The notes beneath the pieces were generated by a model that saw nothing but the letters and a program-made list of their open reading frames with translations, was not told the origin of the DNA and did no database searches. From positions 4,212 through 68,211 of the forward strand of contig JAPPNM010000177.1 in NCBI GenBank assembly GCA_028873825.1: a DNA stretch of 64,000 nt, in the 5' to 3' direction. The first letter of the stretch is position 1, and each line of letters starts with the position of its first letter. A program made the translations under genes and the position numbers. The DNA comes from Gemmatimonadota bacterium. GTDB taxonomy: Bacteria > Gemmatimonadota > Gemmatimonadetes > Longimicrobiales > Gaopeijiaceae. Below are positions 12,413 to 31,107 of this stretch, one piece after another.

Positions 12413-12432
12413 GGATGATTCCCGAAACGCAA

Positions 12433-12462
12433 GAGCCCCGAGGACGAAACGCCTCGGGGCTC
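12433..12462 (+). terminator. GC-rich hairpin after the ATPase gene
   Basis: GAGCCCCGAGG-ACGAAACG-CCTCGGGGCTC: an 11-bp perfect stem starting 21 nt after the stop. No clear U-tract follows. Confidence 0.45.
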
Positions 12463-12572
12463 CTACCTCAGCGTCTTGCTGCGCCCGAAGGCGTGTGCAG
12501 TAGAGGACGACCTGAGGAATTACACCAGGAGCATCGTCGATTCCCGCTCAGGACGCAACTCGCGGAGCTGCG

Positions 12573-13300: not shown

Positions 13301-13570
13301 ATGACCAGGGTCACCGCCACGGAACTGCGGGTCGCGATCTCCGACCTCCTCGACCGCGTGGCCCGTCACGGCGAGCGGGTTGTGGTCGAGCGGTATGGGA
13401 AGCGGGTGGCCGCCCTCGTCAGCCCGGAGGACATCGAGCTGCTGGAAGCAATCGAGGACCGCGTGGACATCGAGGCGGCCCTGCAGGCGCTGAGGGAGCC
13501 CGGTCGGCGGAGTTGGCCCAAGGTGAAGGCCGAGTTGGCTCCGCATCGCCCTGAGGGTGAGCGACGATGA
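13301..13570 (+). CDS. Phd/YefM-family antitoxin-like protein (no cognate toxin gene)
   Basis: MTRVTATELRVAISDLLDRVARHGERVVVERYGKRVAALVSPEDIELLEAIED... Starts 14 nt after Abi_2. Its stop overlaps the pglX ATG (ATGA at 13567-13570). Confidence 0.7.
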   Translation: MTRVTATELRVAISDLLDRVARHGERVVVERYGKRVAALVSPEDIELLEAIEDRVDIEAALQALREPGRRSWPKVKAELAPHRPEGERR

Positions 13571-17226: not shown

Positions 17227-20200
17227 CCTTTCGAGATCAACGTCATGTCCATCGGATTTGCGAAGCCCTTTGGCGTCGTTCCGGCGCGGGTGCGTCGGTC
17301 ATGGTCGGGAGCGGGTTTAGCCGGAACGCACGTGCGTTGCGCCCAGGCTCGGACTCGTTGCCCATGTTGGCCGAGATCGGGCGGGCCCTATCCGCTGAGC
17401 TGTATCCCAACGCTACCACCAATCAAGAGATACCCCCGGAGCGACTCTTGAGATTGGCGCAGGCATACCAAGCCGAATTCAAACCCACCGGGTTGCACGC
17501 AGCACTCAGGACATTGGTGGCGGACGATGACTTCACGCCAGCCACTGCCCATGAGCGACTCCTTCGACTGCCGTGGGCCGATGTGTTTACCACCAACTGG
17601 GATACACTACTGGAACGTGCAAGCGAGACCGTTAGGGACCGTGTCTACACTATCGTCCGAAGCAAGCACGACATTCCTGGAGGAGCCCGGCCACGCATCA
17701 TCAAACTCCACGGGTCCCTTCCCGATTCCGCCCTCGTCCTAACCGAAGAGGACTATCGAACCTATCCTACCAAGTTCTTGCCCTTTGTGAATACCGTACA
17801 ACAGGCAATGATGGAGACGACATTCGTCCTAATTGGCTTTTCGGGCAATGATCCTAACTTCCTTCATTGGTCAGGTTGGGTTCGTGACCACCTCGATGAA
17901 GCTGCGCTGAACATCTATCTCGCTGGATTACTGAACCTGTCGCGCCCCGAGCGCCAGATGCTCCGAGATCGCAACGTAGTTGCCATCGATCTCGCGTTGC
18001 ACCCACGAGCAGACGAGTGGCCCGATGGCCTTCGTCATGAGTACGCCACAAAGTGGATTCTCTCAGCGCTCGAATGCGGACAACCCTACAACATATCGAA
18101 ATGGCCTACGCCTCGGCCTGCGACATTCTGTTCCGAAGAGGATCCTCTACTCGATCCGATCATCCGAAACGTGTCGGCAGAACCACGCAGGGAACCCTCG
18201 GAGTCGCCACGGGAGATACCTTCGGACGAGCGCTTGATCGCCGTCAAGAAGACTCTTGACATTTGGAAGTACAACCGGGACCTTTTTCCGCGCTGGTTGG
18301 TGGCTCCGGGGCGAGTGCGAAGTGAAGTATGGTATTCCACTGAGCGCTGGATGTCTTTCGTCGTGCAGGAGCTGACGCAATTGGCCGCTCTGGAACGCCT
18401 GACCGCGATTCGCGACATCATCTGGCGGTACGAGCTGACCCTTGAGACAATCCCGGATGAACTTCACGCCGCCGCGGAGGCGGTGCTGAGATCCATCGAC
18501 TGTACAGGGCGGACGGTTGAAGGGATTCGCCCAGATGACGTGGATTGGAGCGCGACTCGTGGGGCGTGGCAGGAGGTGACCCTCGCTCTCTTGACCGCTG
18601 CCAGATACCGACTCGACGGTGCCGCTTTCGAGAAGCACCTCAACGCAGTGCAGCCCATTCTGGACGATGATGTGGAGGCAGCCCATCGTGTGAATCATGA
18701 ACGCTGCCTGTGGGCGCTGTGGGCCTTGGACCATGCGACAGTCGGCGAACGGTTAGATGCATGGAGGACTGACGAAGGCGATTCCGCTTGGGCGATGCGC
18801 AAGAGCGCCCTCCTGAGAGAGATTGGACGCAAGGAGGATGCTGATCGCTTGACTATGCGCGTCGTTGAGCGGATCAGAGCGACTCGAGATGGCCCTGGCG
18901 ATCTTGGTGGTCGGTCACGTGAAGGATGGGCGCTATGGAGTCTGGTCGAGACGTTTGCGTATGATGGCAGCTTTCAAACCCGATGGGATAATGTCCAAGC
19001 ACGATGGGATGAGCTCGCGGTCGTCAAGTGCAATCCGTATCCCGACGTCCGTAACCTCAGCGATCAGTTGTCGACCGATCGGCGCGAAACTCGGGTCCCG
19101 GCTTTCGACCTCGGAATGCGTCCGACAGAGTCGCACACGATGCAGATGGTACGTCCGCCCTCTGCATCGCGGGGCATTCGACTGACCGAGGTCGCGGGTG
19201 TCGCCCCTACGACTGGTGTGCGGACGGTCGCGGGCGGCTTGGTGAAGCGGGCTGCCGAAGCACTGATCTCCGATGATGCCACCCTTGGAATGCGTCAGAT
19301 GATCCGCGTCGCCGAATCGGGCAACGACAAGGCGCTGAGGCGTGTGCTGACCCGTCCACGAGTGGCTGCGCTTACTGCTGCGAGCGCACGAGCACTGTCT
19401 CGCGATGTTCAGATCGCATTGAAGAACTCAGTATCGGATATTCGGACCACCAGAGACGAAACCCGATTCAAAGCGGTGAGGCACACGAGCGTCGCCATGG
19501 AGTCATTGTCACGGCTGGTGCTGCGACTGGAGCCTGGAGCGGCTCTCTCGATCTTTGACCGTGCGCTTGGCCTCTATCGGGACACGTCGGTGATGGAGTG
19601 GATTCAGCTGCACGGATCACTGCGTAACCTGTTGAGGAGAAGTTGGGAGACTCTTGACGACGAACAGCGCACGGAGCGAATACTCGATGTTCTTGAGACG
19701 CCGATCGTCGGGCTCGACGGGTATGCGAGTGCCGGTGATCACTGGCCTGATCCCAGTGAGATCCTGTCGGAGGATCTTTCGCCAGTGCGTTCTGAAGAGA
19801 ATGAGAATCGATGGAACTCAGTGGTGGCCACGTTGATTCGAGGGTCGAGCGCCGAGGGGCAGGTACGTGAACGGGCAGCAGTCAGGCTTGCCAAGATCGC
19901 GTTGTGGGGTCGCCTTGCGAAGACAGAGACGGAGAGAGTCGCTGAGGCTATCTGGGGAGTCGCAGCGGATGAAGAACAAGCGCTTCCAGATGGCACGTCG
20001 CTGCACGACTATGCCTTTATTCTGCTTCCCGAGCCCAAGGTTGGCGTTGGAAGAGCGCGCTTTGGGCGAAAGTGGCTGTCGGGGGATGTTGCCAATGTGC
20101 GGCTTGGCGGCGAGGTCGGCCACAAAGATTCGACTAGGGCAGACGACATTCTGTGGCAGGCGGGCATGTCCGTTGCGTTCGTACGTCGTCACGGGAGAAC

Positions 20201-21050
20201 GTTGGATCTGACCAATGAGGAGAAGGATTATCTGATCGGAGTGATTGATCATTGGTCACGGACTAGGGCTCCCAAGCCTTCGGTAGTGATTCCAGAGTTC
20301 TTTAGAGATTTGCGGACACGATCGATCTGGGATGCGTGCCGTGGGTTGCGGTGGCTTTTGACTGAGATTCGGATTCCCAATGGTCTTGCGGAGAGACTAT
20401 ATGGGCAAGTGCCGGAGTTGATCGATAGCGGGATTTCAGCGTACGGCATCCTTCCGGGCATCGACAATGTAGACGAGGATCTGCGTGAGGACATTGCGTT
20501 GCTTATGTCAACCGGATTGGCATCGGACGATCGCAAGATGGGGGAGAGCGCGATGTGGTCATTGCACTGTTGGTTGCGGTTCGCGTCAGAGTCGGCGCTT
20601 GACTTCGTCGGTCCCCCACAGCACTTGATTCGGGAAATTGGGGTTTCGGTGGCCACGAGGCGGCGAACGGTACTGGGAGAGGCGCTCCACGCGGCGAAGT
20701 GGATCTTTGAAGACGGCAGTGAAGAAGAGCGAGACGCGATCCGCGACTTGGTGCTGAAGGGCTTGGGCTACCTCGCCGAAGAGTTGCGGTACGATCGCGA
20801 GGACCCGCTCGATGAGAAACTCGATGTTCCGCTCGCACGGTGGCGCAGCATCCAAGTGGCGCGAGCGATGGCCGGGCAGGGTTTGGGCGGGCATCCCGTG
20901 GTCAAGCGGTGGTTGCAGTTGGGAATGGATGACCCGCTACCGGAAGTACGACGTGTCGCGAACAGGAGGCGGGAGGGTGATGCGATGGTCGAAGTGGCCG
21001 GTGCAGATGGGCGACATGAGTTCGCCGACGAGGGTGGGGCCGATGCCTAG
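17223..21050 (+). CDS. SIR2_2-domain protein with about 1000-aa helical C-terminal region (DSR-like candidate NADase effector)
   Basis: Contains VMVGSGFS, FTTNWDTLLERA, IIKLHGSL and LIGFSGNDPNFLHW within the first 260 aa. HEAT-like DDPLPEVRRVA near the C-terminus. The ATG overlaps the pglX stop (ATGA). GC is visibly lower than in the flanking genes. Confidence 0.8.
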   Translation: MTFRDQRHVHRICEALWRRSGAGASVMVGSGFSRNARALRPGSDSLPMLAEIGRALSAELYPNATTNQEIPPERLLRLAQAYQAEFKPTGLHAALRTLVADDDFTPATAHERLLRLPWADVFTTNWDTLLERASETVRDRVYTIVRSKHDIPGGARPRIIKLHGSLPDSALVLTEEDYRTYPTKFLPFVNTVQQAMMETTFVLIGFSGNDPNFLHWSGWVRDHLDEAALNIYLAGLLNLSRPERQMLRDRNVVAIDLALHPRADEWPDGLRHEYATKWILSALECGQPYNISKWPTPRPATFCSEEDPLLDPIIRNVSAEPRREPSESPREIPSDERLIAVKKTLDIWKYNRDLFPRWLVAPGRVRSEVWYSTERWMSFVVQELTQLAALERLTAIRDIIWRYELTLETIPDELHAAAEAVLRSIDCTGRTVEGIRPDDVDWSATRGAWQEVTLALLTAARYRLDGAAFEKHLNAVQPILDDDVEAAHRVNHERCLWALWALDHATVGERLDAWRTDEGDSAWAMRKSALLREIGRKEDADRLTMRVVERIRATRDGPGDLGGRSREGWALWSLVETFAYDGSFQTRWDNVQARWDELAVVKCNPYPDVRNLSDQLSTDRRETRVPAFDLGMRPTESHTMQMVRPPSASRGIRLTEVAGVAPTTGVRTVAGGLVKRAAEALISDDATLGMRQMIRVAESGNDKALRRVLTRPRVAALTAASARALSRDVQIALKNSVSDIRTTRDETRFKAVRHTSVAMESLSRLVLRLEPGAALSIFDRALGLYRDTSVMEWIQLHGSLRNLLRRSWETLDDEQRTERILDVLETPIVGLDGYASAGDHWPDPSEILSEDLSPVRSEENENRWNSVVATLIRGSSAEGQVRERAAVRLAKIALWGRLAKTETERVAEAIWGVAADEEQALPDGTSLHDYAFILLPEPKVGVGRARFGRKWLSGDVANVRLGGEVGHKDSTRADDILWQAGMSVAFVRRHGRTLDLTNEEKDYLIGVIDHWSRTRAPKPSVVIPEFFRDLRTRSIWDACRGLRWLLTEIRIPNGLAERLYGQVPELIDSGISAYGILPGIDNVDEDLREDIALLMSTGLASDDRKMGESAMWSLHCWLRFASESALDFVGPPQHLIREIGVSVATRRRTVLGEALHAAKWIFEDGSEEERDAIRDLVLKGLGYLAEELRYDREDPLDEKLDVPLARWRSIQVARAMAGQGLGGHPVVKRWLQLGMDDPLPEVRRVANRRREGDAMVEVAGADGRHEFADEGGADA

Positions 21051-22812
21051 ATCCCGCCGCGATGTTGAAGGACTTCTGGACCGGCTCGACGAGTTTCCCG
21101 CCCACGACCTCGAGTTCCAGAACCTCGACTTCAAGGAATGGGATCCCTGCCGCCTGAACCAATCGGTGCGATCCGCCGTGACCTCCGCCGTCTGCATGGC
21201 CAACGGCGGCGGTGGAACAGTGGTCTTCGGCGTCGCCGACAAGGTGGTAGGCCGCGACCGCGCGATCGTCGGCGTCCCGCCTGAAGTGTCGGTCAACCGC
21301 CTCAAGCTGGCGGTTCACGACGGAACGGATCCGAAGCTCACGCCGGTCTTCGAGGAACTCATGGTACCGGAAGGGACTGGACGCCTGATCCTCATGCGCG
21401 TTCATCCCGGGATCCCCCCCTACACGGATACCGCCGGTCGCGGCACGGTTCGGGTCGGCACGGACTGCAAGCCGCTGACCGGAACGATGAGGAGAAAGCT
21501 CCTCGAAGAGTCCGGAGAGAACGACTACACGGCGGTGACCATCGACGCTCCTCTTCCCGGGTTGATATCCCCCGCGGCCATGGAGACGCTTCGCGAGGCC
21601 GCGAAGTTGGACAGGGCGCCCCCTGACCTGCTTCGGCTTGGCGACACCGATCTGCTGCGCGCGATCGGCGTGATCCGCGACGGCAGGCCCACGCGGGCGG
21701 CGGTCCTTCTCGCCGGCTCGCCCGACGCCGTCCGCGACCATGTCCCCAGCTTCCTTTGGACCCACCTCCGAATGTCGTCGGACACCGAGTACTCCGACCG
21801 CGCCGACGGCCACCACGCAATCCCGGTCGCCCTGTCCCGCCTCCTCGACCGGATCATGGCGAACAACCTGATCGAGACGGTGCGTCGCGGAGTCTACCAC
21901 TTCGAGTACCGAACGTACCCGAAGACGGCTCTTCGAGAGGCCCTTCTCAACGCACTGTGCCACGGTGCCTTTCGTGTCGCCGGCCCGAGGATCGTGAGGC
22001 AGTATGCCGACCGAATCGAAATCTCCAACCCCGGTGGTCTGATCGGCGACATCACGCCGGACAACATCCTCCACCACGCGCCTGCGGCTCGGAATCCGTG
22101 CCTCGTCCAGGCCCTGGTGCGTCTCCGCCTTGTGAATCGAAGCAAACTCGGAATGGAGCGGATGTACTCTGCGCTTCTCATTGAGGGGAAGCCGCCGCCC
22201 GAGATCGAGGAGGTCGGCGGATCCGTCCGGTTGACGTTTAGGGCTTCCTCCGTTTCACCCCGGTTCCGCGGCTTCGTGGGCGAGGAGGCGCGAAAGGAGA
22301 TCGTGCTCGGCGCGGACCAGCTGCTCCTCCTGCGACACATGGTCCGCCACGGCGAGATCGACAATCCCACCGCATCTCGGCTCTGCCAGAGGCGGGAGTC
22401 CGCCGTCGCCGCAGTGCTGGCCCGGATGGAATCGGAGCTGGGATACGTGGAACACAGAGGCAGCGGCCCGGGCGCGTACTGGATGCTGTCGCCCGAAGCC
22501 CATGCCCGCTTGGCGCCCGCGAACGACTTTCGCGAGGGACCGAAGGTCGTCTTCGGAGCGGACGGAACGGTGACCCACCGGGATCCGCACGGAGCCTGGG
22601 ACGGTCTCAAGGCGCGGGTGATCCGGGTGATCAGGCGATGCGCCGATACCGGTGCCGATCCCCTCGTCAACGCCGATGTCCGCCGGATCACCGGCCTGGA
22701 TCGCCATCAGGTCCGCCGCATGATCCATGAGCTCCGGGACGACGGCCTCGTCGTGATCGAGGGCCACGGGCGTGCCGCCAGATACCTCTACGCCAGCCCC
22801 GGGAGCGAATAG
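21043..22812 (+). CDS. COG2865/Schlafen-like protein (AlbA_2-like N-domain + HATPase_c_4 + C-terminal wHTH-like regions)
   Basis: The ATG at 21043 lies 8 nt before the SIR2 stop. Contains DLEFQNLDFKEWD and LREALLNALCHGAF. C-terminal ...RHQVRRMIHELRDDGLVVIEG. The ORF track start at 20812 is judged too far upstream. Confidence 0.65.
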   Translation: MPRSRRDVEGLLDRLDEFPAHDLEFQNLDFKEWDPCRLNQSVRSAVTSAVCMANGGGGTVVFGVADKVVGRDRAIVGVPPEVSVNRLKLAVHDGTDPKLTPVFEELMVPEGTGRLILMRVHPGIPPYTDTAGRGTVRVGTDCKPLTGTMRRKLLEESGENDYTAVTIDAPLPGLISPAAMETLREAAKLDRAPPDLLRLGDTDLLRAIGVIRDGRPTRAAVLLAGSPDAVRDHVPSFLWTHLRMSSDTEYSDRADGHHAIPVALSRLLDRIMANNLIETVRRGVYHFEYRTYPKTALREALLNALCHGAFRVAGPRIVRQYADRIEISNPGGLIGDITPDNILHHAPAARNPCLVQALVRLRLVNRSKLGMERMYSALLIEGKPPPEIEEVGGSVRLTFRASSVSPRFRGFVGEEARKEIVLGADQLLLLRHMVRHGEIDNPTASRLCQRRESAVAAVLARMESELGYVEHRGSGPGAYWMLSPEAHARLAPANDFREGPKVVFGADGTVTHRDPHGAWDGLKARVIRVIRRCADTGADPLVNADVRRITGLDRHQVRRMIHELRDDGLVVIEGHGRAARYLYASPGSE

Positions 22813-22885
22813 ATCGTGAGCGAGAATGTGATTGAGGACGGTCGAGGCCGGAATGAAGACGGGTTCCCCGTGAGCTTTTCTCAGC

Positions 22886-23160
22886 GGAAATGCGCGAGAA
22901 TCGCAAGAAATAGCATTTCACACGCATTGATTATCAAAAATGCGAACGAAATGCGATTATACACAGTTCCAGATACATTTCCCTCGCGAGATGCGAACGG
23001 AATGCGCGAATCGCCTTTTCGAGTCGCATTTCTACCCGCACTCTGCTGGAAATGCGACAATTCCGGCCTCCCGCACCCATTCTTGACTCATTTCTCGACT
23101 CAATCTCCGAGAAATGAGTCACAGAGTGCCGTTCCGATCCGTTTTCTGACTCATTTCCCG
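22886..23160. repeat. AT-rich intergenic repeat cluster (AATGCG-type motifs and TGACTCATTTC motifs)
   Basis: About nine AATGCG or CGCATT copies. ATGCGAACG(A/G)AATGCG occurs twice. Perfect 14-bp inverted repeat TGACTCATTTCTCG / CGAGAAATGAGTCA at 23085-23122, with a third direct copy at 23147-23160. Confidence 0.7.
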
Positions 23161-23171
23161 CGCGCCGGAAG

Positions 23172-24353
23172 ATGAACCTGAACGAATTTCGCGAGAGAAT
23201 CCGAGCCGGCGAGAGCGAGCGGCTGGAGTTCAAGCGCGAGGCGCGCGACCTCCGGGCGGTCGGCCGGGCCGTCTGCGCGTTCGCCAACTCGTCCGGCGGC
23301 ACGGTCGTCATTGGCGTGGACGACCGGGGCGGAATCGTGGGCGTGGACGAAGATCCGGACGGGCTGCAGGAACGCCTGAGCGGCTTTCTCCACACCGGAC
23401 TGAGTTCCCCCGTTTCGGCGAGGTGCGGCTGTCTGGAGACTCCCGCCGGCTGGGTGCACTGGATCAGGGTCCCCCACCAGCAGCGCGGGTTCGAGCCCAT
23501 GCGCCACAGGGGCCGCTACTGGGTGCGCCGCGGCAGGAGCAGCGTCGAGCCGTCGCCCTCCGGGCTGGAGGAGCTCCTCCAAGTCTTCGGGTTCGTAATG
23601 ACGGAGGACCAAGTGATCCCGTCGGCGGAGGAACATCACATCGACCTGGCCGTGTTCACCGCCCACCTGCGGGCCATGGGACTCAAGCCCGACGAGGGGC
23701 CCCAGCCTTCCATGACCGACGACCTTCGCAATCGCGGAGTGACCGCGGAACTGGACGGGGTCATGCGTCCGACCCTCTACGGCCTGCTAGCGTTCGGCAA
23801 GCATCCGCAGCAATACCCCCAGATGGGGAACTTCGTCGTGCGTTGCGCCGCCTACCTGGGCGACCACCAGGGATCGGAGGTCATTTCGGCCAGCGAGAGC
23901 CGGGGACGTCTGGAGGAGCAGGTGAATCGCGCGCTGGAGTGGGTCCGATCCTTCGGCTGGCGCGAGGAATACCGGGGTCTCTACCGCCGCAACGTGCCGC
24001 TGGTCCCCGAGGACGCCCTCCGCGAGGCGCTGGTGAACGCGGTCGTGCACCGGGACTACTCGATCACCGGATCGCCGGTGTCGCTGGACGTGCTGCGGGA
24101 CCGGGTTCTGGTGACCAGTCCGGGGGCTCTTCCGAATCACATGACCGAGGAGAGCGTGCGCGCGGGCGGGCGGCCCCGGTCCCGCAACGAGCTCATGGTC
24201 AACGCGATGGTCGTGGCCAGGTTGATGGAGAAGCGCGGGAGGGGATGGCTGCTGATGAGTGAGGCGATGGCGGAGTTCGATCTGCCCGAGCCGGAGATCG
24301 AGAACGATCCCGCGGGACGCACAGTGCGGGTGACGCTGAGGCGCGTGCCATGA
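23172..24353 (+). CDS. COG2865/Schlafen-like protein (AlbA_2 + HATPase_c_4)
   Basis: 393 aa. Contains GESERLEFKREA, AFANSSGGTVVIGVDD and LREALVNAVVHRDY. Confidence 0.75.
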   Translation: MNLNEFRERIRAGESERLEFKREARDLRAVGRAVCAFANSSGGTVVIGVDDRGGIVGVDEDPDGLQERLSGFLHTGLSSPVSARCGCLETPAGWVHWIRVPHQQRGFEPMRHRGRYWVRRGRSSVEPSPSGLEELLQVFGFVMTEDQVIPSAEEHHIDLAVFTAHLRAMGLKPDEGPQPSMTDDLRNRGVTAELDGVMRPTLYGLLAFGKHPQQYPQMGNFVVRCAAYLGDHQGSEVISASESRGRLEEQVNRALEWVRSFGWREEYRGLYRRNVPLVPEDALREALVNAVVHRDYSITGSPVSLDVLRDRVLVTSPGALPNHMTEESVRAGGRPRSRNELMVNAMVVARLMEKRGRGWLLMSEAMAEFDLPEPEIENDPAGRTVRVTLRRVP

Positions 24354-24360
24354 CACCTCG

Positions 24361-24393
24361 GGACGGCTTCCACGCGCTCGTCAACCACCACCG
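24361..24393 (+). repeat. 33-nt copy (32/33 identical) of an internal pglX segment (16623-16655)
   Basis: GGACGGCTTCCACGCGCTCGTCAAC(T/C)ACCACCG, compared base by base. Lies 8 nt after the stop of the 23172 gene. Confidence 0.85.
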
Positions 24394-24422
24394 ACACGCG
24401 GCACGTCGCCCGGAGAAATCCG

Positions 24423-24758
24423 ATGCCCAAGACTAGAGCCGAGATACTCGACGTGCTGGAACGCCTCGACGAGTGCGTGGCGGACGATCTCGAGGGCCAG
24501 CATCTCGACTTCAAGCAGTGGGATCAACGCAGCGACCGGGGCGCGCTGCGACAAATTGCTTCATTTCCTTCCCCGATCCGCAAGACGGGTGCGCATCGTG
24601 GGGCGCGAGACCGGACACGCGTTACCTGGCAGGCTCGTGATGGTGGAGCGGGCACCTGGGACCGCGGGAAATGGGACAAATCGGGACGGGTCGGGGCGTT
24701 CCTTGTCCCAATTCGCGCCGGATCGTTGGAAATGTATCAGCAGCGGATGATCCCATGA
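24423..24758 (+). pseudogene. stub ORF: the first 36 or so codons resemble the N-terminus of the 21043 COG2865 gene, the rest is unrelated
   Basis: ILDVLERLDECVADDLEGQHLDFKQWD compared with LLDRLDEFPAHDLEFQNLDFKEWD. The ORF stop overlaps the ATG of the next gene (ATGA at 24755-24758). Confidence 0.4.
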
Positions 24759-26440
24759 CCCCTCTCCTCTCCCCCGCCGAGCTCCAGACCGTCCTGTCCC
24801 GCGGCGAAGGCCAGTTCGTCGAGTTCAAGTCCGCGTGGGACCGCACTACTTCACCGCGCAAGCCCGTCGCGCGCCGCGCCCTGCGCGACAAGATCGCCGA
24901 TGCCGTCGCCGCCTTCGCGAACGCCGACGGTGGCCTGCTCTTGGTCGGAGTGGACGACGACGGCACCGCCACCGGGCACCGCTACCCAGACCATGTCGTG
25001 GACGACCTGTTCGCCGTCCCCGACCGCCGACTGACCCCCGCCGTCGACTGCCGCACGGCGCGCTTGTCGCTCGATTGCCACGAGATCCTCGCCTTCCAGG
25101 TCCCGATTGCCTCCGAAGCCGTCATGATCGACGGGAACAGCTTCCCGTATCGGGTCGGCGCCCGGATCATCCGGGAGCCGCAGGAGATCATCAACCAGCG
25201 GAAGCAGGCGTATCGCCTCGTCGGCTACGAGCAACGCTTCAGCCCGGAAGCGACTGTGGACGATCTGGACCTGGCGCTGGCCGAGTCCTTCCTGAAGGAG
25301 ACGCCGGTTGGGGACCGTCCCGTCCTCGATGCCCTCGACTACTACGGCCTCATCGAGATGGACGTACGCGACTGGAGGGTGACCAACGCCGCTCTCCTGC
25401 TCTTTGCGCGCCGCCCGGCGCTCCGCTGGCATCCCCGCGCGGGCCTCCGGGTGTTCCGCGTCGCAGGAACGGAGATCAGGTACGGGCGCCGGCGGAACGT
25501 GACGCAGATCGGGCGGGCGGATCCTCCGCTGGCCCTGGCCGTCCACGAGATAGTGGAGCTGGCGCGGCACCAGGTGCGCAGGTCCGAGAAACTGGTCGGT
25601 CTCCACTTCGAGGACATCACCGAGTACCCCCACTTCGCGTGGCAGGAATCGTTGGTCAACGCCATTGCCCACCGCGACTACGAAGTGCAGGGCCGCGAAA
25701 CCGAAATCTGGTTCTTCGAGGACCGGCTCGAAGTGTCGAGTCCGGGAGAGCTCCTTCCGCCCGTCACCGTGGACACGCTGCGAGAGGGCCACAGGGCTCA
25801 TGTGACCCGCAATCCGATGCTGGTCCGGGTTCTCGCCGACACGGAGATCATGCGGGACGAGGGGGAGGGGATCGTGCGGGTCTTCCGCGAAATGGCGAAC
25901 AGCTTTCTCCGCGAACCGGAGATGACCTCCGCGAACGGCCTGTTCACGATCACGCTTCGCAACGAGCCCGACTGGGAGGCACACGGACCGGGTTGGAGGC
26001 ACTTCGTCGACTGGCTTCGCGTCACGGACGATCAGAAGAGGATGCTACTCCTGCGGCCGTACGGGTTCACACAGGCCGACTATGAGCGGCTGAACACGAT
26101 GTCGCCCGAGGAAGCGGCTCGGCGGATCGCGGATCTGGTAAGCGGAGAACTCGTGATCGGCCTTCCCGCTCCAGACAATGTCGGGCCGATGTTCGTGGTG
26201 CGGCCGGACAAGGAAAAGATGGGCCTCTTCCTGAACGACCGGATCCTTAGGCTCCGGGAGCATTTCCGGAAGCAGCCCTGGCTCAAGAATGCCGACTATC
26301 GCGAGGTCTTCGACGTTGACCGGCGAAAGGCGACCAGGGAGCTCCGCCAGCTCGCGGAGGTCTTCGGTCTGCTGCGGATGGAAGGGACCCGCCGGGGTGC
26401 CCACTACCGCCCAACGTCCGCGCTCGGAGCGAGCTTATGA
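24755..26440 (+). CDS. COG2865/Schlafen-like protein (AlbA_2 + HATPase_c_4 + C-terminal extension)
   Basis: MTPLLSPAELQTVLSRGEGQFVEFKSAWD..., AFANADGGLLLVGVDDDG, and WQESLVNAIAHRDY. The start is chosen at the ATG at 24755 within ORF 24671..26440. Confidence 0.75.
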   Translation: MTPLLSPAELQTVLSRGEGQFVEFKSAWDRTTSPRKPVARRALRDKIADAVAAFANADGGLLLVGVDDDGTATGHRYPDHVVDDLFAVPDRRLTPAVDCRTARLSLDCHEILAFQVPIASEAVMIDGNSFPYRVGARIIREPQEIINQRKQAYRLVGYEQRFSPEATVDDLDLALAESFLKETPVGDRPVLDALDYYGLIEMDVRDWRVTNAALLLFARRPALRWHPRAGLRVFRVAGTEIRYGRRRNVTQIGRADPPLALAVHEIVELARHQVRRSEKLVGLHFEDITEYPHFAWQESLVNAIAHRDYEVQGRETEIWFFEDRLEVSSPGELLPPVTVDTLREGHRAHVTRNPMLVRVLADTEIMRDEGEGIVRVFREMANSFLREPEMTSANGLFTITLRNEPDWEAHGPGWRHFVDWLRVTDDQKRMLLLRPYGFTQADYERLNTMSPEEAARRIADLVSGELVIGLPAPDNVGPMFVVRPDKEKMGLFLNDRILRLREHFRKQPWLKNADYREVFDVDRRKATRELRQLAEVFGLLRMEGTRRGAHYRPTSALGASL

Positions 26441-26701
26441 GCGTGCAGAGACCAGTTATGACCGTTGGTCACGTAAATCGTAAAATGTTGCAGTACAGTC
26501 TTTTACGAAAGATATGAACTTCAGCATCGTGAATATGACCACTAGCGTGGCCGCGTTTTCGGTTGCCATCCGGTGGAATCAGCGTCGCGCGGCTCCACCG
26601 GCTATGATCACCACTCACCGAGCTATGACCACCCGCGACGATCATCACAACCTGTTGTCGACAAATCTCTTACGAGACATATGCCCCCGAGGTCCGCACT
26701 T
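26441..26701 (+). promoter_or_regulatory. AT-rich repeat-bearing region upstream of pglZ (probable internal promoter/operator region)
   Basis: A 60-nt sample is about 37% GC. About eight TATGA(C/T/A) motifs. Palindrome TGACC-GTT-GGTCA at 26459-26471. T(T/C)TTACGA(A/G)A(G/C)ATATG occurs twice. Confidence 0.5.
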
Positions 26702-29047
26702 ATGACGGAACACGGCACCCAGGGCTCCCCCCCCACCCCCCTCGACCACCTTGCCCGCTCCCTCCGCGCCCGCGCCTCGGTCCCGAGCGGCCAGGCCGCC
26801 CCCGCCTCCATTCTGTGGACCGACCCCGGAGCCGAATGGCGCGGACTCCTCCCGGAAGCGCTTGCTCGCATCCCCGAGCTGCTCGTCCTTGGCGACTACG
26901 CTCCAGACGACCGCACCGGTCCCGCGATCTGGCTGCGCTGCGTGGTGGACGGCACGATCGAAGTCCCCGGACTCCCCGCCGACGCCACCCCCATCCTATA
27001 CCTCCCCGGAGTCGAACGCGGCGAGCTGCGCGCCGGCGAGGAGTGCCCCGACCGGCTCAAGCCGCTCGTCGAGCTCATGTACCGCGGCGTCCTCTGGCAC
27101 AATCCCAAGGGCCTCGACTGGACGGTGACAGCGTTCCTGACCTCATCCGGCGGCCCGGATCTCGACATCGCCCCCGACCGGGGAACGGCAGCGGCGCTGC
27201 ACGGCGCCCTCGACCACATCGCCACCACCCCGGTCAGCCACCTGCGCGGCCACCGCCTCGATGCCGCCGACTTCAACCGCATGGCCGGAGTCGATGTGTT
27301 CCGCGATATCCTGCGCTGGATGGGCGACCCCGAGCGCATGCGATCCGGGCCGGACGAGAGCCGCTGGAACGCCTTCCGCGCGGAGTGCCGGAGCGATCTC
27401 CGGTTCGACCCCGAGACGGAGCCGGACGTGTCGGCCGGAGCCAGGCTCGGCGAGGGATCGGGCCCCTGGGCCAAGGTGTGGGCCCGGTTCACCGAAGCGC
27501 CGGATGCCTTCCCCGGCGTGCCCGAAGTGCTGGCTCGCAGCCGTCCCGCGGGCGAGCTGGCACTGGATCGGGAACCGTGGCCCGACCTCAACGCCGAGGA
27601 CGAGGAGGCGGTGCGGAGCGCGCTGGCCGGTCTTCCGGGCCTGTCCCATACCGATGCGTGCCGGGCGGTCGCGCGGCTGGAGGGAGATCACGGCCATCGC
27701 CGGCGCTGGGTCTGGGCACGCCTGGGACGGTCTCCGCTCGCCGAAGTGCTGAAGCCGCTGGCCCGGCTGGCCGGGATTGCCGACAAGGCCATCGGTGGTG
27801 CAAGCCCGGACGATGTGGCCGAAGTCTATGCCGAGCGCGGTTGGCTGGCGGACGCGGGCGCCCGAGAGGCTCTATCCCTGGCTCCCGCCGAGCACGAAGA
27901 GACGGTTGCCGCCGCAGTGCGCCACCTGCTCGAGCCTTGGCTGGAAGACTCCGCCCGCGCGTTCCAGTCGGCGGTGGATCGCCGGCCGCTCCCCTCCGCC
28001 GGTGACCAGCCGGCGGTCACGGCCGGCGAAGACGAATGCATCCTGTTCGTCGACGGCCTCCGCTACGAGCTCGGACGGTCGCTCGCCGAACGGCTGGAGG
28101 CACGCGGATGTCGCACGGAGACGCGCCGCCGTTGGGCCGCGATCCCTACGGTGACCGGCACCGCCAAGCCCGCCGTAACCCCGGTAGCGCGCGATGTCGC
28201 CGGGGACCGGCTCGGCTCCGACTTCCGTCCCGCCATGCGGGGCTCCGGCCGACCCGCCCTGGCCAAGGACCTGCGCAAGGCCACGGAAGGGCGGGGCTAC
28301 CAGATTCTCGGTTCGGGCACCCTGGATATCCCGCTGAACTCCGGTGCCCGCGGCTGGTTGGAGACCGGTGAGATCGACAAGCACGGTCACCACCACCGCG
28401 CGGCGTCGTTCGCCCGCCAGATCGAAGAGGAGCTGGACCGGCTGGCCGGCCGGATCGCGGGGCTGCTGAAGGCGGGCTGGAGTTCGGTCCGCGTCGTCAC
28501 CGACCACGGGTGGCTGCTGCTCCCCGGCGGCCTCCCGATGGTCACCCTGCCCAAACACCTCACCGAGTCCAAGTGGGCACGGTGCGCCGTCGTTTCGGCC
28601 GGCTCCACGCCGGACGCGCCTCTTCATCCCTGGCACTGGAACCCGCAGGAGTGGTTCGCCTCTCCACCCGGAATCGCCTGCTTCAGCCAGACGCCGGAGT
28701 ATGCGCACGGCGGCCTCAGCATCCAGGAATGCCTGATCCCGGACATTCGTGTCGAAGGGACGGCTGACGGGGGCGCGACCGCGAAGATCCTATCCGTCTC
28801 CTGGGTCCGCTTCCGCTGCAAGGTCGTCGTCGAGGCCCGGGGCGGCCCCGTCACGGCCGATCTGCGGCTCGGCGGTCCGACGGGCGAATCGGTCGCGTCC
28901 TCGCCCAAAGCCATCGACGACAACGGACGGGCCAGCCTGGTCCTTGCCGGCGACGAATACGAGAACGCCGCGCTGGTCCTCGTGGTTACCGATGCCGGCG
29001 GCCGCGTCCTCGCCCAACAACCGACCCGCAAGGGAGAGAACATATGA
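26702..29047 (+). CDS. pglZ: BREX alkaline-phosphatase-superfamily protein PglZ
   Basis: About 780 aa from the ATG at 26702. The upstream part of ORF 26573 lies in the AT-rich region and is not protein-like. Position between pglX and brxL. C-terminal half contains ILFVDGLRYELG...VTDHGW. Confidence 0.85.
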   Translation: MTEHGTQGSPPTPLDHLARSLRARASVPSGQAAPASILWTDPGAEWRGLLPEALARIPELLVLGDYAPDDRTGPAIWLRCVVDGTIEVPGLPADATPILYLPGVERGELRAGEECPDRLKPLVELMYRGVLWHNPKGLDWTVTAFLTSSGGPDLDIAPDRGTAAALHGALDHIATTPVSHLRGHRLDAADFNRMAGVDVFRDILRWMGDPERMRSGPDESRWNAFRAECRSDLRFDPETEPDVSAGARLGEGSGPWAKVWARFTEAPDAFPGVPEVLARSRPAGELALDREPWPDLNAEDEEAVRSALAGLPGLSHTDACRAVARLEGDHGHRRRWVWARLGRSPLAEVLKPLARLAGIADKAIGGASPDDVAEVYAERGWLADAGAREALSLAPAEHEETVAAAVRHLLEPWLEDSARAFQSAVDRRPLPSAGDQPAVTAGEDECILFVDGLRYELGRSLAERLEARGCRTETRRRWAAIPTVTGTAKPAVTPVARDVAGDRLGSDFRPAMRGSGRPALAKDLRKATEGRGYQILGSGTLDIPLNSGARGWLETGEIDKHGHHHRAASFARQIEEELDRLAGRIAGLLKAGWSSVRVVTDHGWLLLPGGLPMVTLPKHLTESKWARCAVVSAGSTPDAPLHPWHWNPQEWFASPPGIACFSQTPEYAHGGLSIQECLIPDIRVEGTADGGATAKILSVSWVRFRCKVVVEARGGPVTADLRLGGPTGESVASSPKAIDDNGRASLVLAGDEYENAALVLVVTDAGGRVLAQQPTRKGENI

Positions 29048-31107
29048 GTGCGCCCGAATTCCAGATGGACGCGCTGGACCACACCGCCAACGAGGCCTTC
29101 CCCGGCTACCTGGTGCGGAAGGACCTCGTGCGGCGCTACGCCCGCCAGTACCCTGTCCCCACCTACGTCGTCGAGTTCCTCCTCGGCCGCTACTGCGCCA
29201 GCGTCGACCAAGAGGAGATCGACGAGGGCCTCGCGATCGTGAAGAACCAGCTCGAAGGGCGCACAGTCCGCGCCGCCGAGCGGGAGATCTTCAAGATGAG
29301 GGCGCGCGAGGAGGGATCCGTCCGCCTCATCGACATCCTGCGCGCCCGCCTGGACGCGAAGAACGACTGCTACCTCGCCGAACTACCCAGCCTCGGCCTC
29401 CGGGACATCCGCATCGAGAGCGGGTTCGTCACCGACCACCAGCGGATGCTCGCCGACGGGCTCTACGCCGAGGTGACGCTGGAATACGACCCGGTGATCG
29501 CCCAGGAAAAACAGGGACGCCCGTTCAGCATCGCGGCCATGCGCCCCATCCAGATGTCGAGCCCGTCGGTCCTCAAGGTGCTGGCCAAGGGACGGCGCCG
29601 CTTCAACACCGACGATTGGACCGACTTCCTCCTCCGTTCGACCGGCCTGGAGCCGTCCGCGCTGGACGATCGGGCCAAGCGTGTCGCGCTCCTCCGCCTG
29701 ATCCCCTTCGTCGAGCGCAACTACAACCTCGTCGAACTCGGTCCCCGCGGCACGGGCAAGAGTCACGTCTACCAGCAGCTCTCTCCGCACTCCCACCTGC
29801 TCTCGGGCGGCAAGGCCACCGTGGCGAAGATGTTCGTCAACATGGCCAACGGACAGCGAGGCCTAGTGTGCCAGTACGACGTGGTGTGCTTCGACGAGGT
29901 CGCCGGCATCTCCTTCGACCAGAAGGACGGCGTCAACATCATGAAGGGGTACATGGCGTCGGGCGAGTTCAGCCGGGGCAAGGAGAGCATCCGCGCGGAG
30001 GGGTCGCTGGTGCTGGTCGGCAACTTCGACGTTTCGGTGGAGCAGCAGCAGCGCATCGGCCACCTGTTGAGCCCGTTGCCGAAGCAGATGCGGGACGACA
30101 CGGCCTTCCACGACCGGATCCACGGCTACGCCCCCGGCTGGGACTTTCCCAAGCTCAATCCCGGCGAGCACCTCACCGATCATTTCGGCCTGGTCAACGA
30201 CTTCCTGAGTGCATGCTGGACCAAGCTGCGGGACACGACGCGCCTGCCGCTCCTGCAGAATCGGGTGTTCTGGGGCGGCGCGCTGTCCGGACGGGACATC
30301 GAGGCGGTCCACAAGACGGTCTCCGGGCTGATCAAGCTGCTGTTCCCGGATGGTGAGATGGAGGTGGACGACGAGGATCTGGAGTGGATGGTGCGGCTGG
30401 CCCTGGAGTCGCGCCGGCGCGTGAAGGAACAGCAGAAGCGGTGTCTGAAGGCCGAGTTCCGGAGCACCCACTTCTCGTACACGCTCGGTGTGGACGGGAC
30501 GGAGCAGTTCGTGGCGACGCCAGAGCTTCGCAGCGACGAGGCGATCGACAGCGACCCGTTGCCTCCCGGGCAGGTGTGGGCGATCGGGCCGGGGGTGGAG
30601 GGTACCGGGCCGGGGCTCTACCGGATCGAGGTGGTCGTGGGGCCGGGGGCGGGGGGCGCGAAGATCCTGAACCAGCCGGTGCCGCCTGCGTTTAGGGAGA
30701 GTGTCCGGGTGGGGGAGCAGAATCTGTACACGGGGGGGAAGGCGCTGGTGGGGGACCGCGACGCGCGGGCGCACCAGTACACCGTTCAGATGCAGCCTCG
30801 GGACAACGACAAATCGGGGACCGGGCTGGGACTGCCGGTGCTCGCGGCGATGGTGGGGGGATTGCTGGACCGGAAGACGCGTGGGGCGACCATCATCGTG
30901 GGGCCGCTGAACCTGGGGGGATCGCTGGAACGGATCGCGGACCCGGTGGCGATGGCGGAGCTGGCGGTGGACAAACAGGCTACCGTGCTGCTGATGCCGG
31001 TGGGGGCGCGCCGGGAGCTGATGAATCTCGACGACGATGTGTGGACGAAGGTGAATATCGAATTCTACCGGGACGCGCAGAACGGGCTGTTCAAGGTGTT
31101 GGAGTGA
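29044..31107 (+). CDS. brxL: BREX Lon-like protease BrxL
   Basis: 687 aa. ATGA overlap with pglZ. AAA+ Walker A LGPRGTGKSHVYQ. Lon-protease-like C-terminal region ...GLGLPVLAAMVGGLL... Confidence 0.85.
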   Translation: MSAPEFQMDALDHTANEAFPGYLVRKDLVRRYARQYPVPTYVVEFLLGRYCASVDQEEIDEGLAIVKNQLEGRTVRAAEREIFKMRAREEGSVRLIDILRARLDAKNDCYLAELPSLGLRDIRIESGFVTDHQRMLADGLYAEVTLEYDPVIAQEKQGRPFSIAAMRPIQMSSPSVLKVLAKGRRRFNTDDWTDFLLRSTGLEPSALDDRAKRVALLRLIPFVERNYNLVELGPRGTGKSHVYQQLSPHSHLLSGGKATVAKMFVNMANGQRGLVCQYDVVCFDEVAGISFDQKDGVNIMKGYMASGEFSRGKESIRAEGSLVLVGNFDVSVEQQQRIGHLLSPLPKQMRDDTAFHDRIHGYAPGWDFPKLNPGEHLTDHFGLVNDFLSACWTKLRDTTRLPLLQNRVFWGGALSGRDIEAVHKTVSGLIKLLFPDGEMEVDDEDLEWMVRLALESRRRVKEQQKRCLKAEFRSTHFSYTLGVDGTEQFVATPELRSDEAIDSDPLPPGQVWAIGPGVEGTGPGLYRIEVVVGPGAGGAKILNQPVPPAFRESVRVGEQNLYTGGKALVGDRDARAHQYTVQMQPRDNDKSGTGLGLPVLAAMVGGLLDRKTRGATIIVGPLNLGGSLERIADPVAMAELAVDKQATVLLMPVGARRELMNLDDDVWTKVNIEFYRDAQNGLFKVLE

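What the first reader, a model, noticed from the sequence alone, without database searches (positions are those of the whole stretch)
21043..26440. Array of COG2865/Schlafen-like paralogues between SIR2 and pglZ (plus a truncated fourth after brxC)
Three consecutive genes (589, 393 and 561 aa) share the AlbA_2-like N-domain (..EFK.., ..GG.(V/L)..GV.D) and the HATPase_c_4 motif (R/Q)E(A/S)LVNA(V/I).HRDY. Their C-terminal wHTH-like extensions differ. A fourth copy lacking AlbA_2 follows brxC.

COG2865 is known to be enriched in defence islands, and its AlbA_2 core is the Schlafen nuclease fold. I am not aware of a defined role in BREX. Multiple diverged paralogues in one operon suggest a diversified sensor or effector set.
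Basis: partly seen in the sequence, partly recalled or inferred. Interest (0 to 1): 0.6.

Follow-up and report, generated by a model that had tools for sequence, protein, structure and literature searches.

The report
Three Schlafen-ATPase genes stacked inside BREX
Three intact, very different genes of the bacterial Schlafen-nuclease/ATP-switch family (probable suicide-type antiviral enzymes) sit side by side, with leftovers of two more, in the exchangeable cargo slot of a BREX anti-phage locus. The family and its link to BREX were published in 2025-26, so this is a rich example of a known kind and not a new one.

Summary
Genes at 21043-22812 (589 aa), 23172-24353 (393 aa) and 24755-26440 (561 aa) each carry SLFN_AlbA_2 plus HATPase_c_4 above Pfam cut-offs. 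A fourth gene (10013-10855, 280 aa) after brxC has only the ATPase part. A 36-codon stub of a fifth lies at 24423.

They belong to the published 'Schlatpase' / pSlfn-HisKinase(-HTH) family (COG2865). Its link to BREX core loci was reported in 2026 (PMC12839542, PMC13462974).

They are not local duplicates. They are 26-30% identical and fall in three deep clades.
- The c3 type is the usual occupant of the pglX-pglZ slot of type 1 BREX in several phyla.
- The c1 type usually sits between brxC and pglXI in type 3 BREX.
- The c2 type was solitary in the three cross-phylum contexts checked.

Congeners show swapped, missing or truncated cassettes, so the slot is a recombination hotspot.

The catalytic Ex4(E/D)xK motif and the GHKL motifs are intact. 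The most likely function is ATP-switched tRNA cleavage as abortive-infection back-up; this is inferred, not shown.

One less ordinary point: c1 is followed by a unique array of GAAATGCG-like repeats. In relatives the repeat motif varies together with the last DNA-binding domain. This scan has noted similar Schlafen-in-BREX genes, arrays and repeats on other DNA.

The parts
21043..22812 (+). c1: Schlafen (AlbA_2) - GHKL ATPase - two winged-helix domains, 589 aa. Its start overlaps the Dsr2 stop by 8 nt. It belongs to the 'c1 type', the usual resident of type 3 BREX.
   Evidence: Pfam. Motifs E24x4D29FK, GVAD and E299..N303. Model with two C-terminal wHTH. Clade placement. A unique D309A change in the otherwise conserved H-x-D motif.
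22887..23190 (.). Array of about 12 GAAATGCG-like repeats on both strands, plus a TGACTCATTTC inverted repeat, in the 360-bp spacer (22813-23171) after the c1 stop. It is the only such cluster in the genome.
   Evidence: Conserved in congeners. A recurrent feature after c1-type genes.
23172..24353 (+). c2: minimal Schlafen - GHKL ATPase, 393 aa, with no winged-helix tail ('c2 type').
   Evidence: Pfam. Cross-phylum orthologues at 55-60% identity. Profile alignment to the SLFN13/14 catalytic residues.
24361..24399 (+). 39-nt fragment of a conserved internal pglX segment (92% identical to 16623-16661). A recombination scar.
   Evidence: (D8).
24423..24530 (+). 5' stub of about 36 codons of a c1-type gene (77% nt identity to 21076-21145). 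The ORF runs on into unrelated sequence up to 24758.
   Evidence: (D1).
24755..26440 (+). c3: Schlafen - GHKL ATPase - two winged-helix domains, 561 aa. It belongs to the 'c3 type', the usual occupant of the pglX-pglZ slot of type 1 BREX.
   Evidence: Pfam. Structure model (pLDDT 77) and fold matches. Contexts.
26441..26572 (.). Spacer after c3 and before pglZ with TATGAC-type repeats. The repeats continue into the annotated 5' end of pglZ, to about 26701. A link to the c3 tail is only weakly supported.
   Evidence: window p=0.055; 2 of 64 loci at p<=0.01.
10013..10855 (+). c4: c2-type gene lacking the whole Schlafen domain (280 aa). The GHKL motifs are intact and the start overlaps the brxC stop.
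17223..21050 (+). Context: Dsr2-like SIR2 defence gene, cargo in the same slot and coupled to c1.
13567..17226 (+). Context: BREX methyltransferase PglX, the left edge of the cargo slot.
26573..31107 (+). Context: PglZ (BREX-1 type B) and BrxL, the right edge of the cargo slot.
6540..10016 (+). Context: BrxC. A second cargo slot follows it (c4, a PD-T4-4_A-like ATPase at 10952-12412, and a 237-aa gene).

Best explanation
The three genes are intact members of the prokaryotic Schlafen-GHKL ATPase family. This family is called the 'Schlatpase' supradomain, or pSlfn-HisKinase and pSlfn-HisKinase-HTH, and was formerly COG2865.

Each comes from a different old subfamily. They are stacked as exchangeable defence cargo, together with Dsr2, in the pglX-pglZ slot of a type 1 BREX locus of a sponge- or coral-associated Gemmatimonadota (Longimicrobiales) genome.

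Most likely mechanism, inferred from the RzAgo and pSlfn work and not shown here:
- Oligomerisation pairs single-lobed Schlafen domains into an active nuclease.
- The nuclease cuts tRNA and stops growth of the infected cell. It therefore acts as a back-up or second layer beside BREX.
- The C-terminal winged-helix domains of c1 and c3 act as the sensing or DNA-binding part.

The copy after brxC and the stub at 24423 are leftovers of further cassettes. The array was built by recombination between related loci, not by duplication in place.
For: Family:
- Pfam domains are above cut-off in all copies.
- The c2-type profile aligns Ex4EFK and GVDD with the catalytic E/E/D of SLFN13 and SLFN14.
- The c3 model matches DIP2311 (3LMM) over its full length, Schlafen C-lobes, the SAMD9 tRNase domain, a GHKL kinase (PDK2) and MarR-type wHTH.
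- The catalytic and N-box residues are invariant in cross-phylum orthologues.

Separate origin:
- Pairwise identity is 26-30%.
- The three genes fall in three clades with 100/100 support.
- Each has orthologues of the same length at 55-60% identity in other phyla.

Cargo slot:
- c3-type genes lie between pglX and pglZ in 19 of 53 informative loci, spanning Gemmatimonadota, Acidobacteriota, Planctomycetota, Latescibacterota and a gammaproteobacterial MAG.
- c1-type genes have BrxC (DUF6079) upstream in 25 of 36 loci and a PglXI-type methylase downstream in 21 of 30.
- Congeners carry Dsr2-c1-c2-c3, Dsr2-c1-c3, or Dsr2-(c1 remnant)-c3. Identities are mosaic: for example c1 is 65% against 95% and Dsr2 83% against 46%, while the BREX core genes brxC, pglX, pglZ and brxL are 89-97% identical to G020.
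- The scars are shown.

Genome-wide: there are 18 GHKL and 16 Schlafen hits in 3.3 Mb, several beside type I restriction-modification genes.

Literature: 10.64898/2026.05.29.728809, 10.1101/2025.07.24.666596, PMC12839542, PMC13462974.
Against: - In the papers I read I found no stand-alone Schlafen-GHKL(-wHTH) protein that was shown experimentally to defend. The biochemistry comes from a fusion to an Argonaute (RzAgo) and from Schlafens with other partners.
- In the Taboada preprint only two of seven tested pSlfn genes protected, and neither was of this class.
- c2-type relatives often sit among ordinary metabolic genes.
- The window's c1 has a unique D309A change in a near-invariant GHKL-domain residue, so this copy may be impaired.
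Confidence: 0.72

Rival explanations
1. BREX-dependent accessory. The c3-type gene (and perhaps the others) is functionally wired into BREX. It might be a guard that fires when a phage anti-restriction protein (an Ocr-like DNA mimic) blocks PglX or BREX, or an auxiliary effector acting on BREX-marked targets. On this reading it is not an autonomous system.
For: - c3-type genes hold the same position, immediately upstream of pglZ, in type 1 BREX of at least five phylum-level groups.
- c1-type genes hold a fixed position in type 3 BREX.
- Other copies in this genome lie in type I restriction-modification loci.
- PMC12839542 proposes 'backup suicidal effectors'.
- A winged-helix tail is a plausible bait for DNA mimics. 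This is my inference.
Against: - 34 of 53 informative c3-type loci show no BREX gene within 10 kb.
- The BREX loci compared here differ in which of these genes they carry: c2 is absent in G004, and c1 is only a remnant in L056 and L076.
- The c2 type was solitary in the three cross-phylum contexts checked.
Confidence: 0.25
2. Mainly DNA-binding regulators. The winged-helix tails bind the repeat arrays placed after c1 (and perhaps c3) and control transcription of the downstream genes (c2-c3, pglZ-brxL). The Schlafen and GHKL parts would serve as a ligand-sensing or oligomerisation module, not as a toxin.
For: - The only genomic cluster of GAAATGCG-like repeats lies directly after c1 and upstream of c2.
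- Such arrays recur after c1-type genes, and their motif variant follows the last winged helix.
- COG2865 was historically annotated as a transcriptional regulator.
- There is a weak MarR_2 hit (19.2 bits) and MarR-like fold matches.
Against: - The nuclease motif Ex4(E/D)xK and the catalytic Asp are invariant across phyla. That is not expected for a pure regulator.
- c2 has no DNA-binding tail.
- The array and the last winged helix are physically adjacent, so their co-variation may partly reflect linkage.
- Only 14 of 60 loci have a clearly significant array.
Confidence: 0.15
3. Decaying passenger DNA. The array is a graveyard of cassettes with no present function.
For: - The locus holds a truncated c4, a c1 stub and a pglX fragment.
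- At least five short GHKL-only fragments lie elsewhere in the genome.
- c1 carries the unique D309A change.
- c4 has a long terminal branch.
Against: - c1, c2 and c3 are full-length, without frameshifts, and 93-97% identical to copies in other species, with all key motifs kept.
- Orthologues are strongly conserved across phyla.
Confidence: 0.05

Closest known systems
'Schlatpase' supradomain (SLFN_AlbA_2 PF04326 + GHKL PF13749), defined with the Schlafen-Argonaute RzAgo (bioRxiv 10.64898/2026.05.29.728809)
   Same: The two-domain core is the same, and the PADLOC pAgo model PDLC02394 matches c2 and c3 over that core. The nuclease motif and the N-box Glu/Asn are conserved. Most family members are small proteins with a C-terminal HTH, like c1 and c3.
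   Different: There is no Argonaute sensor, so the trigger is unknown. ATP-driven tetramerisation and tRNA cleavage are shown only for RzAgo and not for stand-alone proteins.
pSlfn-HisKinase and pSlfn-HisKinase-HTH classes of prokaryotic Schlafens (Taboada et al., bioRxiv 10.1101/2025.07.24.666596)
   Same: c2 has the HisKinase architecture (34% of pSlfns). c1 and c3 have the HisKinase-HTH architecture (19%). All carry the Ex4(E/D)xK motif and lie in a defence island.
   Different: The experimentally proven members of that study have other partner domains (Ig-like, DUF262). These two classes were not shown to protect.
BREX-associated Schlafen RNase - minimal histidine kinase - wHTH genes (PMC12839542, at least 1017 taxa; 'Cluster 2' of PMC13462974)
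   Same: The gene type is the same and it is embedded within BREX core loci. It is interpreted there as a back-up abortive effector.
   Different: Those papers, as far as I searched them, do not describe stacks of several different subfamilies in one slot, slot-specific subfamilies (c3 in BREX-1, c1 in BREX-3), or a repeat array after the gene.
DIP2311 of Corynebacterium diphtheriae (PDB 3LMM), a structural-genomics COG2865 protein
   Same: It gives a full-length fold match to the c3 model (E 2e-23) and a profile match to the c2-type GHKL part.
   Different: About 19% identity. Its function has not been characterised.
Mammalian Schlafens (SLFN11/12/13/14) and the SAMD9 tRNase domain
   Same: The nuclease fold and the catalytic E-E/D-D constellation are shared, as is the antiviral logic of tRNA cleavage.
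   Different: The bacterial proteins have a single lobe (the C-lobe equivalent only) and a GHKL ATPase instead of an SF1 helicase domain.
Other defence cargo nested in BREX loci, such as the HEPN, PIN and TOPRIM/OLD effectors catalogued in PMC12839542; from my memory, not checked here: BrxU (GmrSD) and PARIS
   Same: The slots between BREX core genes are exchangeable. Here they also hold Dsr2 and a PD-T4-4_A-like ATPase.
   Different: The effector chemistry differs. Here up to three Schlafen-type genes plus remnants occupy one slot.

Membership tests
Schlatpase / pSlfn-HisKinase(-HTH) (COG2865) | N-terminal SLFN_AlbA_2 domain (PF04326) above the gathering score | tested here: met
   c1 51.3, c2 71.5 and c3 55.9 bits against a cut-off of 25.3. 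Not met by the truncated copy c4.
Schlatpase / pSlfn-HisKinase(-HTH) (COG2865) | GHKL-type HATPase_c_4 domain (PF13749) above the gathering score | tested here: met
   c1 70.2, c2 66.2, c3 74.9 and c4 63.7 bits against a cut-off of 26.
Schlatpase / pSlfn-HisKinase(-HTH) (COG2865) | Catalytic Ex4(E/D)xK motif plus the downstream acidic residue (GVxD) | tested here: met
   c1 has EFQNLDFK and GVAD. c2 has ESERLEFK and GVDD. c3 has EGQFVEFK and GVDD. These align with the SLFN13/14 catalytic residues and are conserved in orthologues.
Schlatpase / pSlfn-HisKinase(-HTH) (COG2865) | GHKL N-box Glu...Asn (E314 in RzAgo) and glycine-rich lid motifs | tested here: met
   E..xN is present in all four copies, as are the (S/T)(S/N)PG and RN(E/P) motifs. 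c1 has a unique D309A in the adjacent H-x-D motif.
Schlatpase / pSlfn-HisKinase(-HTH) (COG2865) | C-terminal helix-turn-helix tail (HTH subclass only) | tested here: met
   The c3 and c1 models show two winged-helix units with MarR-type fold matches. c2 and c4 have no tail, which places them in the HisKinase-only subclass.
Schlatpase / pSlfn-HisKinase(-HTH) (COG2865) | ATP-dependent oligomerisation and tRNA cleavage | not testable with these tools
   Needs purified protein. Shown only for RzAgo.
Anti-phage defence system (functional class) | Protection against phage on expression | not testable with these tools
   Only context supports it: the BREX, Dsr2 and PD-T4-4 neighbours and type I RM neighbours of other copies.
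BREX core component | Present in every locus of the BREX subtype | tested here: not met
   Content varies among congeners: c2 is absent in G004, and c1 is a remnant in L056 and L076. 34 of 53 c3-type loci lie outside BREX.
Mammalian-type Schlafen (groups I-III) | Bilobed N-lobe/C-lobe nuclease domain; SF1 helicase in group III | tested here: not met
   Only one AlbA_2 unit per protein, matching the C-lobe. The ATPase is GHKL, not SF1.
MarR-family transcription factor | MarR/MarR_2 domain above the gathering score as the main domain | tested here: not met
   MarR_2 scores 19.2 bits against a cut-off of 27, in c1 only. It is a tail on a much larger enzyme-like protein.

The most novel reading that the evidence does not exclude
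The last winged-helix domain of c1-type (and perhaps c3-type) Schlafen-ATPases recognises a private array of short repeats placed right after its own gene. Here these are about 12 GAAATGCG-like sites at 22887-23190, the only such cluster in the genome.

The protein would be parked, or its expression set, on this 'home' DNA. Displacement from it, for example by phage DNA mimics or by competing DNA, would be part of how the nuclease is released.

Stacking c1, c2 and c3, each with a different tail or none, would then give one BREX locus several independent triggers.
Probability: 0.3. Interest if true: 0.6.

Novelty: new member of a known kind. Interest (0 to 1): 0.38.

Why it matters
The locus is a compact natural experiment for a family that is very abundant (tens of thousands of genes) but for whose stand-alone form I found no experimental test in the papers I read. 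It holds three intact, deeply diverged Schlafen-ATPases, one copy without the nuclease domain, and datable recombination scars, all in one BREX locus, with congeners that lack one or another cassette.

It shows that BREX subtypes have their own habitual Schlafen subfamily, and that these can be combined.

The repeat array that travels with the c1 type gives a concrete, cheap hypothesis about how the DNA-binding tail works. None of this changes the published picture that Schlafen-type nucleases are back-up effectors nested in BREX.

Tried and rejected
- **Local tandem duplication.** Rejected: the genes are 26-30% identical and fall in three separate clades. c4 is not sister to the neighbouring c2.
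- **Obligate c2-c3 hetero-oligomer.** The c2-c3-pglZ order recurs in Gemmatimonadota and in Acidobacteriota (L048, L062). However, most BREX-embedded c3 genes stand alone and the three cross-phylum c2-type contexts checked were solitary, so I did not adopt this.
- **The 119-codon ORF at 22816-23175 as a gene.** No family hit, and it lies in the repeat array. Rejected.
- **The stub's tail (24530-24754) as the remains of a c1 repeat array.** The alignment with the c1-c3 spacers of relatives was not convincing, apart from about 35 nt in front of the c3 start.
- **Repeat array after c3-type genes.** Only 2 of 64 loci reached p<=0.01 and the window gave p=0.055. Left as weak.
- **c4 as a member of a conserved Schlafen-less family.** Proteins of similar length exist, but their N-termini differ and some may be contig-edge fragments. 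Inconclusive.
- **NCBIfam.** It has no model for these proteins.
Full report
**Layout**

The window holds a type 1 BREX locus:
- brxC at 6540-10016
- pglX at 13567-17226
- pglZ at 26573-29047 (NCBIfam BREX_PglZ_1_B, 812 bits)
- brxL at 29044-31107

Cargo lies in two slots.
- After brxC: a 280-aa HATPase_c_4-only gene (10013-10855), a PD-T4-4_A-like ATPase (10952-12412) and a 237-aa gene.
- Between pglX and pglZ: a Dsr2-like sirtuin (17223-21050; PADLOC Dsr2 E 6e-146) and the three genes of the finding.

**Observation**

c1 (21043-22812, 589 aa), c2 (23172-24353, 393 aa) and c3 (24755-26440, 561 aa) each match SLFN_AlbA_2 and HATPase_c_4 well above Pfam's cut-offs. Orthologue N-termini fix the starts.

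Pairwise identities are 29.5% (c1-c2), 28.4% (c1-c3) and 26.3% (c2-c3).

The copy after brxC (c4) is a c2-type protein missing residues 1-143. It is 50% identical to c2 over 244 residues without gaps, and all its GHKL motifs are kept.

Between c2 and c3 lie two scars:
- a 39-nt fragment of a conserved internal part of pglX (92% to 16623-16661; it also matches pglX of many relatives)
- the first 36 or so codons of a c1-type gene

c1 overlaps the Dsr2 stop by 8 nt. After c1 come a terminator-like hairpin and a 360-bp spacer of lower G+C that is rich in repeats. The three genes are therefore probably not one operon.

**What they are**

The c2-type profile aligns its ExxxxEFK and GVDD with the catalytic Glu/Glu/Asp of SLFN13 and SLFN14. 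It also matches the GHKL part of DIP2311 (PDB 3LMM).

An AlphaFold model of c3 (mean pLDDT 77, pTM 0.67) matches the following:
- 3LMM over its whole length (E 2e-23)
- Schlafen C-lobes (SLFN12, 14, 11, 13, 5) and the SAMD9 tRNase domain with its N-terminal part
- pyruvate dehydrogenase kinase (a GHKL fold)
- MarR-type winged helices with its tail

The c1 model is weaker (pLDDT 64) but has the same order of domains, with two C-terminal winged helices.

In alignments of cross-phylum orthologues, the Ex4(E/D)xK motif, the following acidic residue, and the N-box Glu and Asn are invariant in all three subfamilies.

This is the family that recent papers describe:
- It is named the 'Schlatpase' supradomain, with 60,692 proteins, more than 90% of which have a C-terminal HTH. 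ATP binding drives tetramerisation, which rebuilds a bilobed Schlafen nuclease; the result is tRNA cleavage and abortive infection in the Argonaute fusion RzAgo (10.64898/2026.05.29.728809).
- It is also named pSlfn-HisKinase and pSlfn-HisKinase-HTH, the two commonest prokaryotic Schlafen architectures (10.1101/2025.07.24.666596).

The BREX link is published too:
- Schlafen RNase-minimal histidine kinase-wHTH genes are closely linked to BREX and BREX-related core loci in at least 1017 taxa, and are read as back-up suicidal effectors (PMC12839542).
- A BREX-associated Schlafen-ATPase cluster is named in PMC13462974.

**Origin of the array**

A maximum-likelihood tree was built from the genome's own copies, representatives from other phyla and array members from other loci. 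It puts c1, c2 and c3 in three clades, each with 100/100 support and stems of about one change per site. c4 lies inside the c2-type clade but is not next to the neighbouring c2.

Each subfamily has orthologues of constant length at 55-60% identity in distant phyla.

Contexts differ by subfamily:
- **c3 type.** Of 53 c3-type loci with at least 2.5 kb on both sides, 19 lie next to pglX and/or pglZ of type 1 BREX (14 of 24 at 60% identity or more). These span Gemmatimonadota, Acidobacteriota, Planctomycetota, Latescibacterota and a gammaproteobacterial MAG.
- **c1 type.** c1-type genes from metagenomes have a DUF6079 protein (1817 bits; the canonical BrxC according to PMC12839542) directly upstream in 25 of 36 loci. 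They have an N6_N4 methylase downstream in 21 of 30. A small BrxF-like ATPase, an SNF2 helicase and PglZ are often nearby, so this is a type 3 BREX operon.
- **c2 type.** c2-type genes in three cross-phylum loci stood alone; two lay among ordinary genes and one within about 5 kb of a SIR2_2 gene.

The locus has therefore collected the habitual Schlafen gene of BREX-1, that of BREX-3, and a free-living type.

**Cassette exchange**

Related genomes of the same genus and order carry several arrangements:
- Dsr2-c1-c2-c3, with c2 and c3 only 2 nt apart and no scar (G020/L008, L009)
- Dsr2-c1-c3 without c2 (G004/L010)
- Dsr2-(c1 remnant)-c3 (L056, L076)
- a c1 remnant followed by c3, with no Dsr2 detected (L019)
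- pglX...c3 (L011)

Identities to the window are mosaic (per cent; a dash means not listed):

| Gene | G020 (L008) | G004 (L010) | L009 |
|---|---|---|---|
| brxC | 93 | - | - |
| pglX | 89 | - | 69 |
| pglZ | 92 | 94 | 88 |
| brxL | 97 | - | - |
| Dsr2 | 83 | 46 | 46 |
| c1 | 65 | 95 | 56 |
| c2 | 97 | gene absent | 96 |
| c3 | 93 | 82 | 86 |

Stacks of two to four Schlafen-ATPase genes in the same slot also occur in Acidobacteriota (L048, L055, L062) and Latescibacterota (L024).

**Genome-wide picture**

The genome is a 3.3-Mb MAG, 93% complete. It has 18 HATPase_c_4 hits and 16 SLFN_AlbA_2 hits. Several are short fragments.

Several copies lie beside type I restriction-modification genes. 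Examples are two tandem copies next to hsdS on contig 98 and one abutting an N6 methylase on contig 45.

All 24 sampled genomes of the genus have the family, with 2-20 hits each. Among 16 sampled genomes of two other families of the same order, only 7 have a hit, with 1-4 hits each.

**The repeat array**

Two earlier notes of this scan, on other genomes, reported repeats right after BREX-embedded Schlafen genes. I tested this here.

In the window:
- 12 of the 55 matches to GAAATGCG with at most one mismatch, and 4 of the 5 exact ones, fall in 22887-23190.
- This is the only cluster of five or more such sites within 300 bp in the whole genome.
- The core of the spacer is conserved in two congeners.

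Across 60 distinct c1-type loci, looking at the 400 nt after the stop codon:
- In 14 loci a 6-mer is more frequent than in all 200 shuffles (23 loci at p<=0.05).
- In 35 of 60 loci the top 6-mer contains AATG/CATT.
- AATG/CATT counts average 9.3, against 5.1 in shuffles and 2.4 in coding DNA.

The array stays with c1 whatever gene follows: c2 here, c3 in G004, pglXI in BREX-3.

The motif variant tracks the predicted recognition helix of the last winged helix:

| Recognition helix | Repeat motif |
|---|---|
| DRKQVIR | AATGTC |
| DRFQVIR | AAATGT |
| DRAQVKR | AATGGC |
| DRNQVVR | ATGCGC |
| DRNQVTR | AATTGC |
| DRHQVRR | GAAATGC |

It does not track the first winged helix. L137 and L140 share the first helix with L144 and L107 but share the last helix and the motif with L091 and L106.

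One caveat applies. The last helix and the array are adjacent, so linkage alone can produce some of this pattern.

For c3-type genes a similar TATG-core pattern is seen among close relatives, but it is statistically weak.

**Mechanism and its status**

Shown here: domain content, intact catalytic signatures, fold, contexts, the cassette history and the repeat array.

Inferred from published relatives: ATP-switched oligomerisation, tRNA cleavage, abortive infection, and the role as a back-up beside BREX.

Open: the trigger, whether the genes depend on BREX, and whether the tails bind the repeats.

One caution concerns the window's c1. It has Ala where 105 of 119 homologues have Asp, and none has Ala, in the H-x-D motif next to the N-box.

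**Verdict**

This is a real, well-preserved and unusually rich example of a known kind. The BREX association is already in the literature. The 'paralogue' picture should be replaced by 'three old subfamilies stacked by recombination'. The repeat array is the part most worth a bench test.

Noticed in passing
window 22887-23190: About 12 GAAATGCG-like sites on both strands, plus a TGACTCATTTC inverted repeat, directly after the c1 stop. It is the only such cluster in the 3.3-Mb genome. Similar AATG-core arrays follow c1-type genes in many metagenomes.
   Followed up: yes
window 21967-21969 (c1 codon 309): c1 reads H-G-A-F where 105 of 119 homologues have Asp at the third position and none has Ala. 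The change is either possibly inactivating or an assembly error.
   Followed up: partly
window 10952-13286: A PD-T4-4_A-like ATPase (PADLOC E 9e-68) and a 237-aa gene with a weak PD-T4-5 match fill the slot after brxC. The ATPase is conserved in G020 (90%).
   Followed up: partly
own genome, contig C98:5804-10183: Two tandem Schlafen-ATPase genes (616 and 500 aa) lie directly next to an hsdS gene of a type I restriction-modification locus. This is a second stack in the same genome.
   Followed up: partly
own genome, contig C19:37495-37905: An AlbA_2 domain sits inside a 1297-codon open frame, in an island that also holds hsdM, hsdS, another Schlafen-ATPase and a GHKL fragment. The large fusion partner was not identified.
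   Followed up: no
own genome and genus (genome search): The family is expanded in this sponge/coral-associated Longimicrobiales genus (2-20 HATPase_c_4 hits per genome in 24 of 24 genomes). Among 16 sampled genomes of two other families of the same order, 7 have a hit, with 1-4 each.
   Followed up: partly
L046:11225-13084 and five related loci: A short c3-like form (about 400 aa, no tail, 62-67% identical to c3) is followed in six loci by a conserved 619-aa gene on the opposite strand with no Pfam match.
   Followed up: no
window 26441-26701: TATGAC-type repeats lie between c3 and pglZ. Close relatives have TATGAA or GCGCATA variants that go with different c3 tails, but the statistics are weak.
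   Followed up: partly
L111:14810-16582: A GmrSD_N (type IV restriction-like) gene lies two genes downstream of c1-type genes in four metagenome loci. It is further cargo in type 3 BREX.
   Followed up: no
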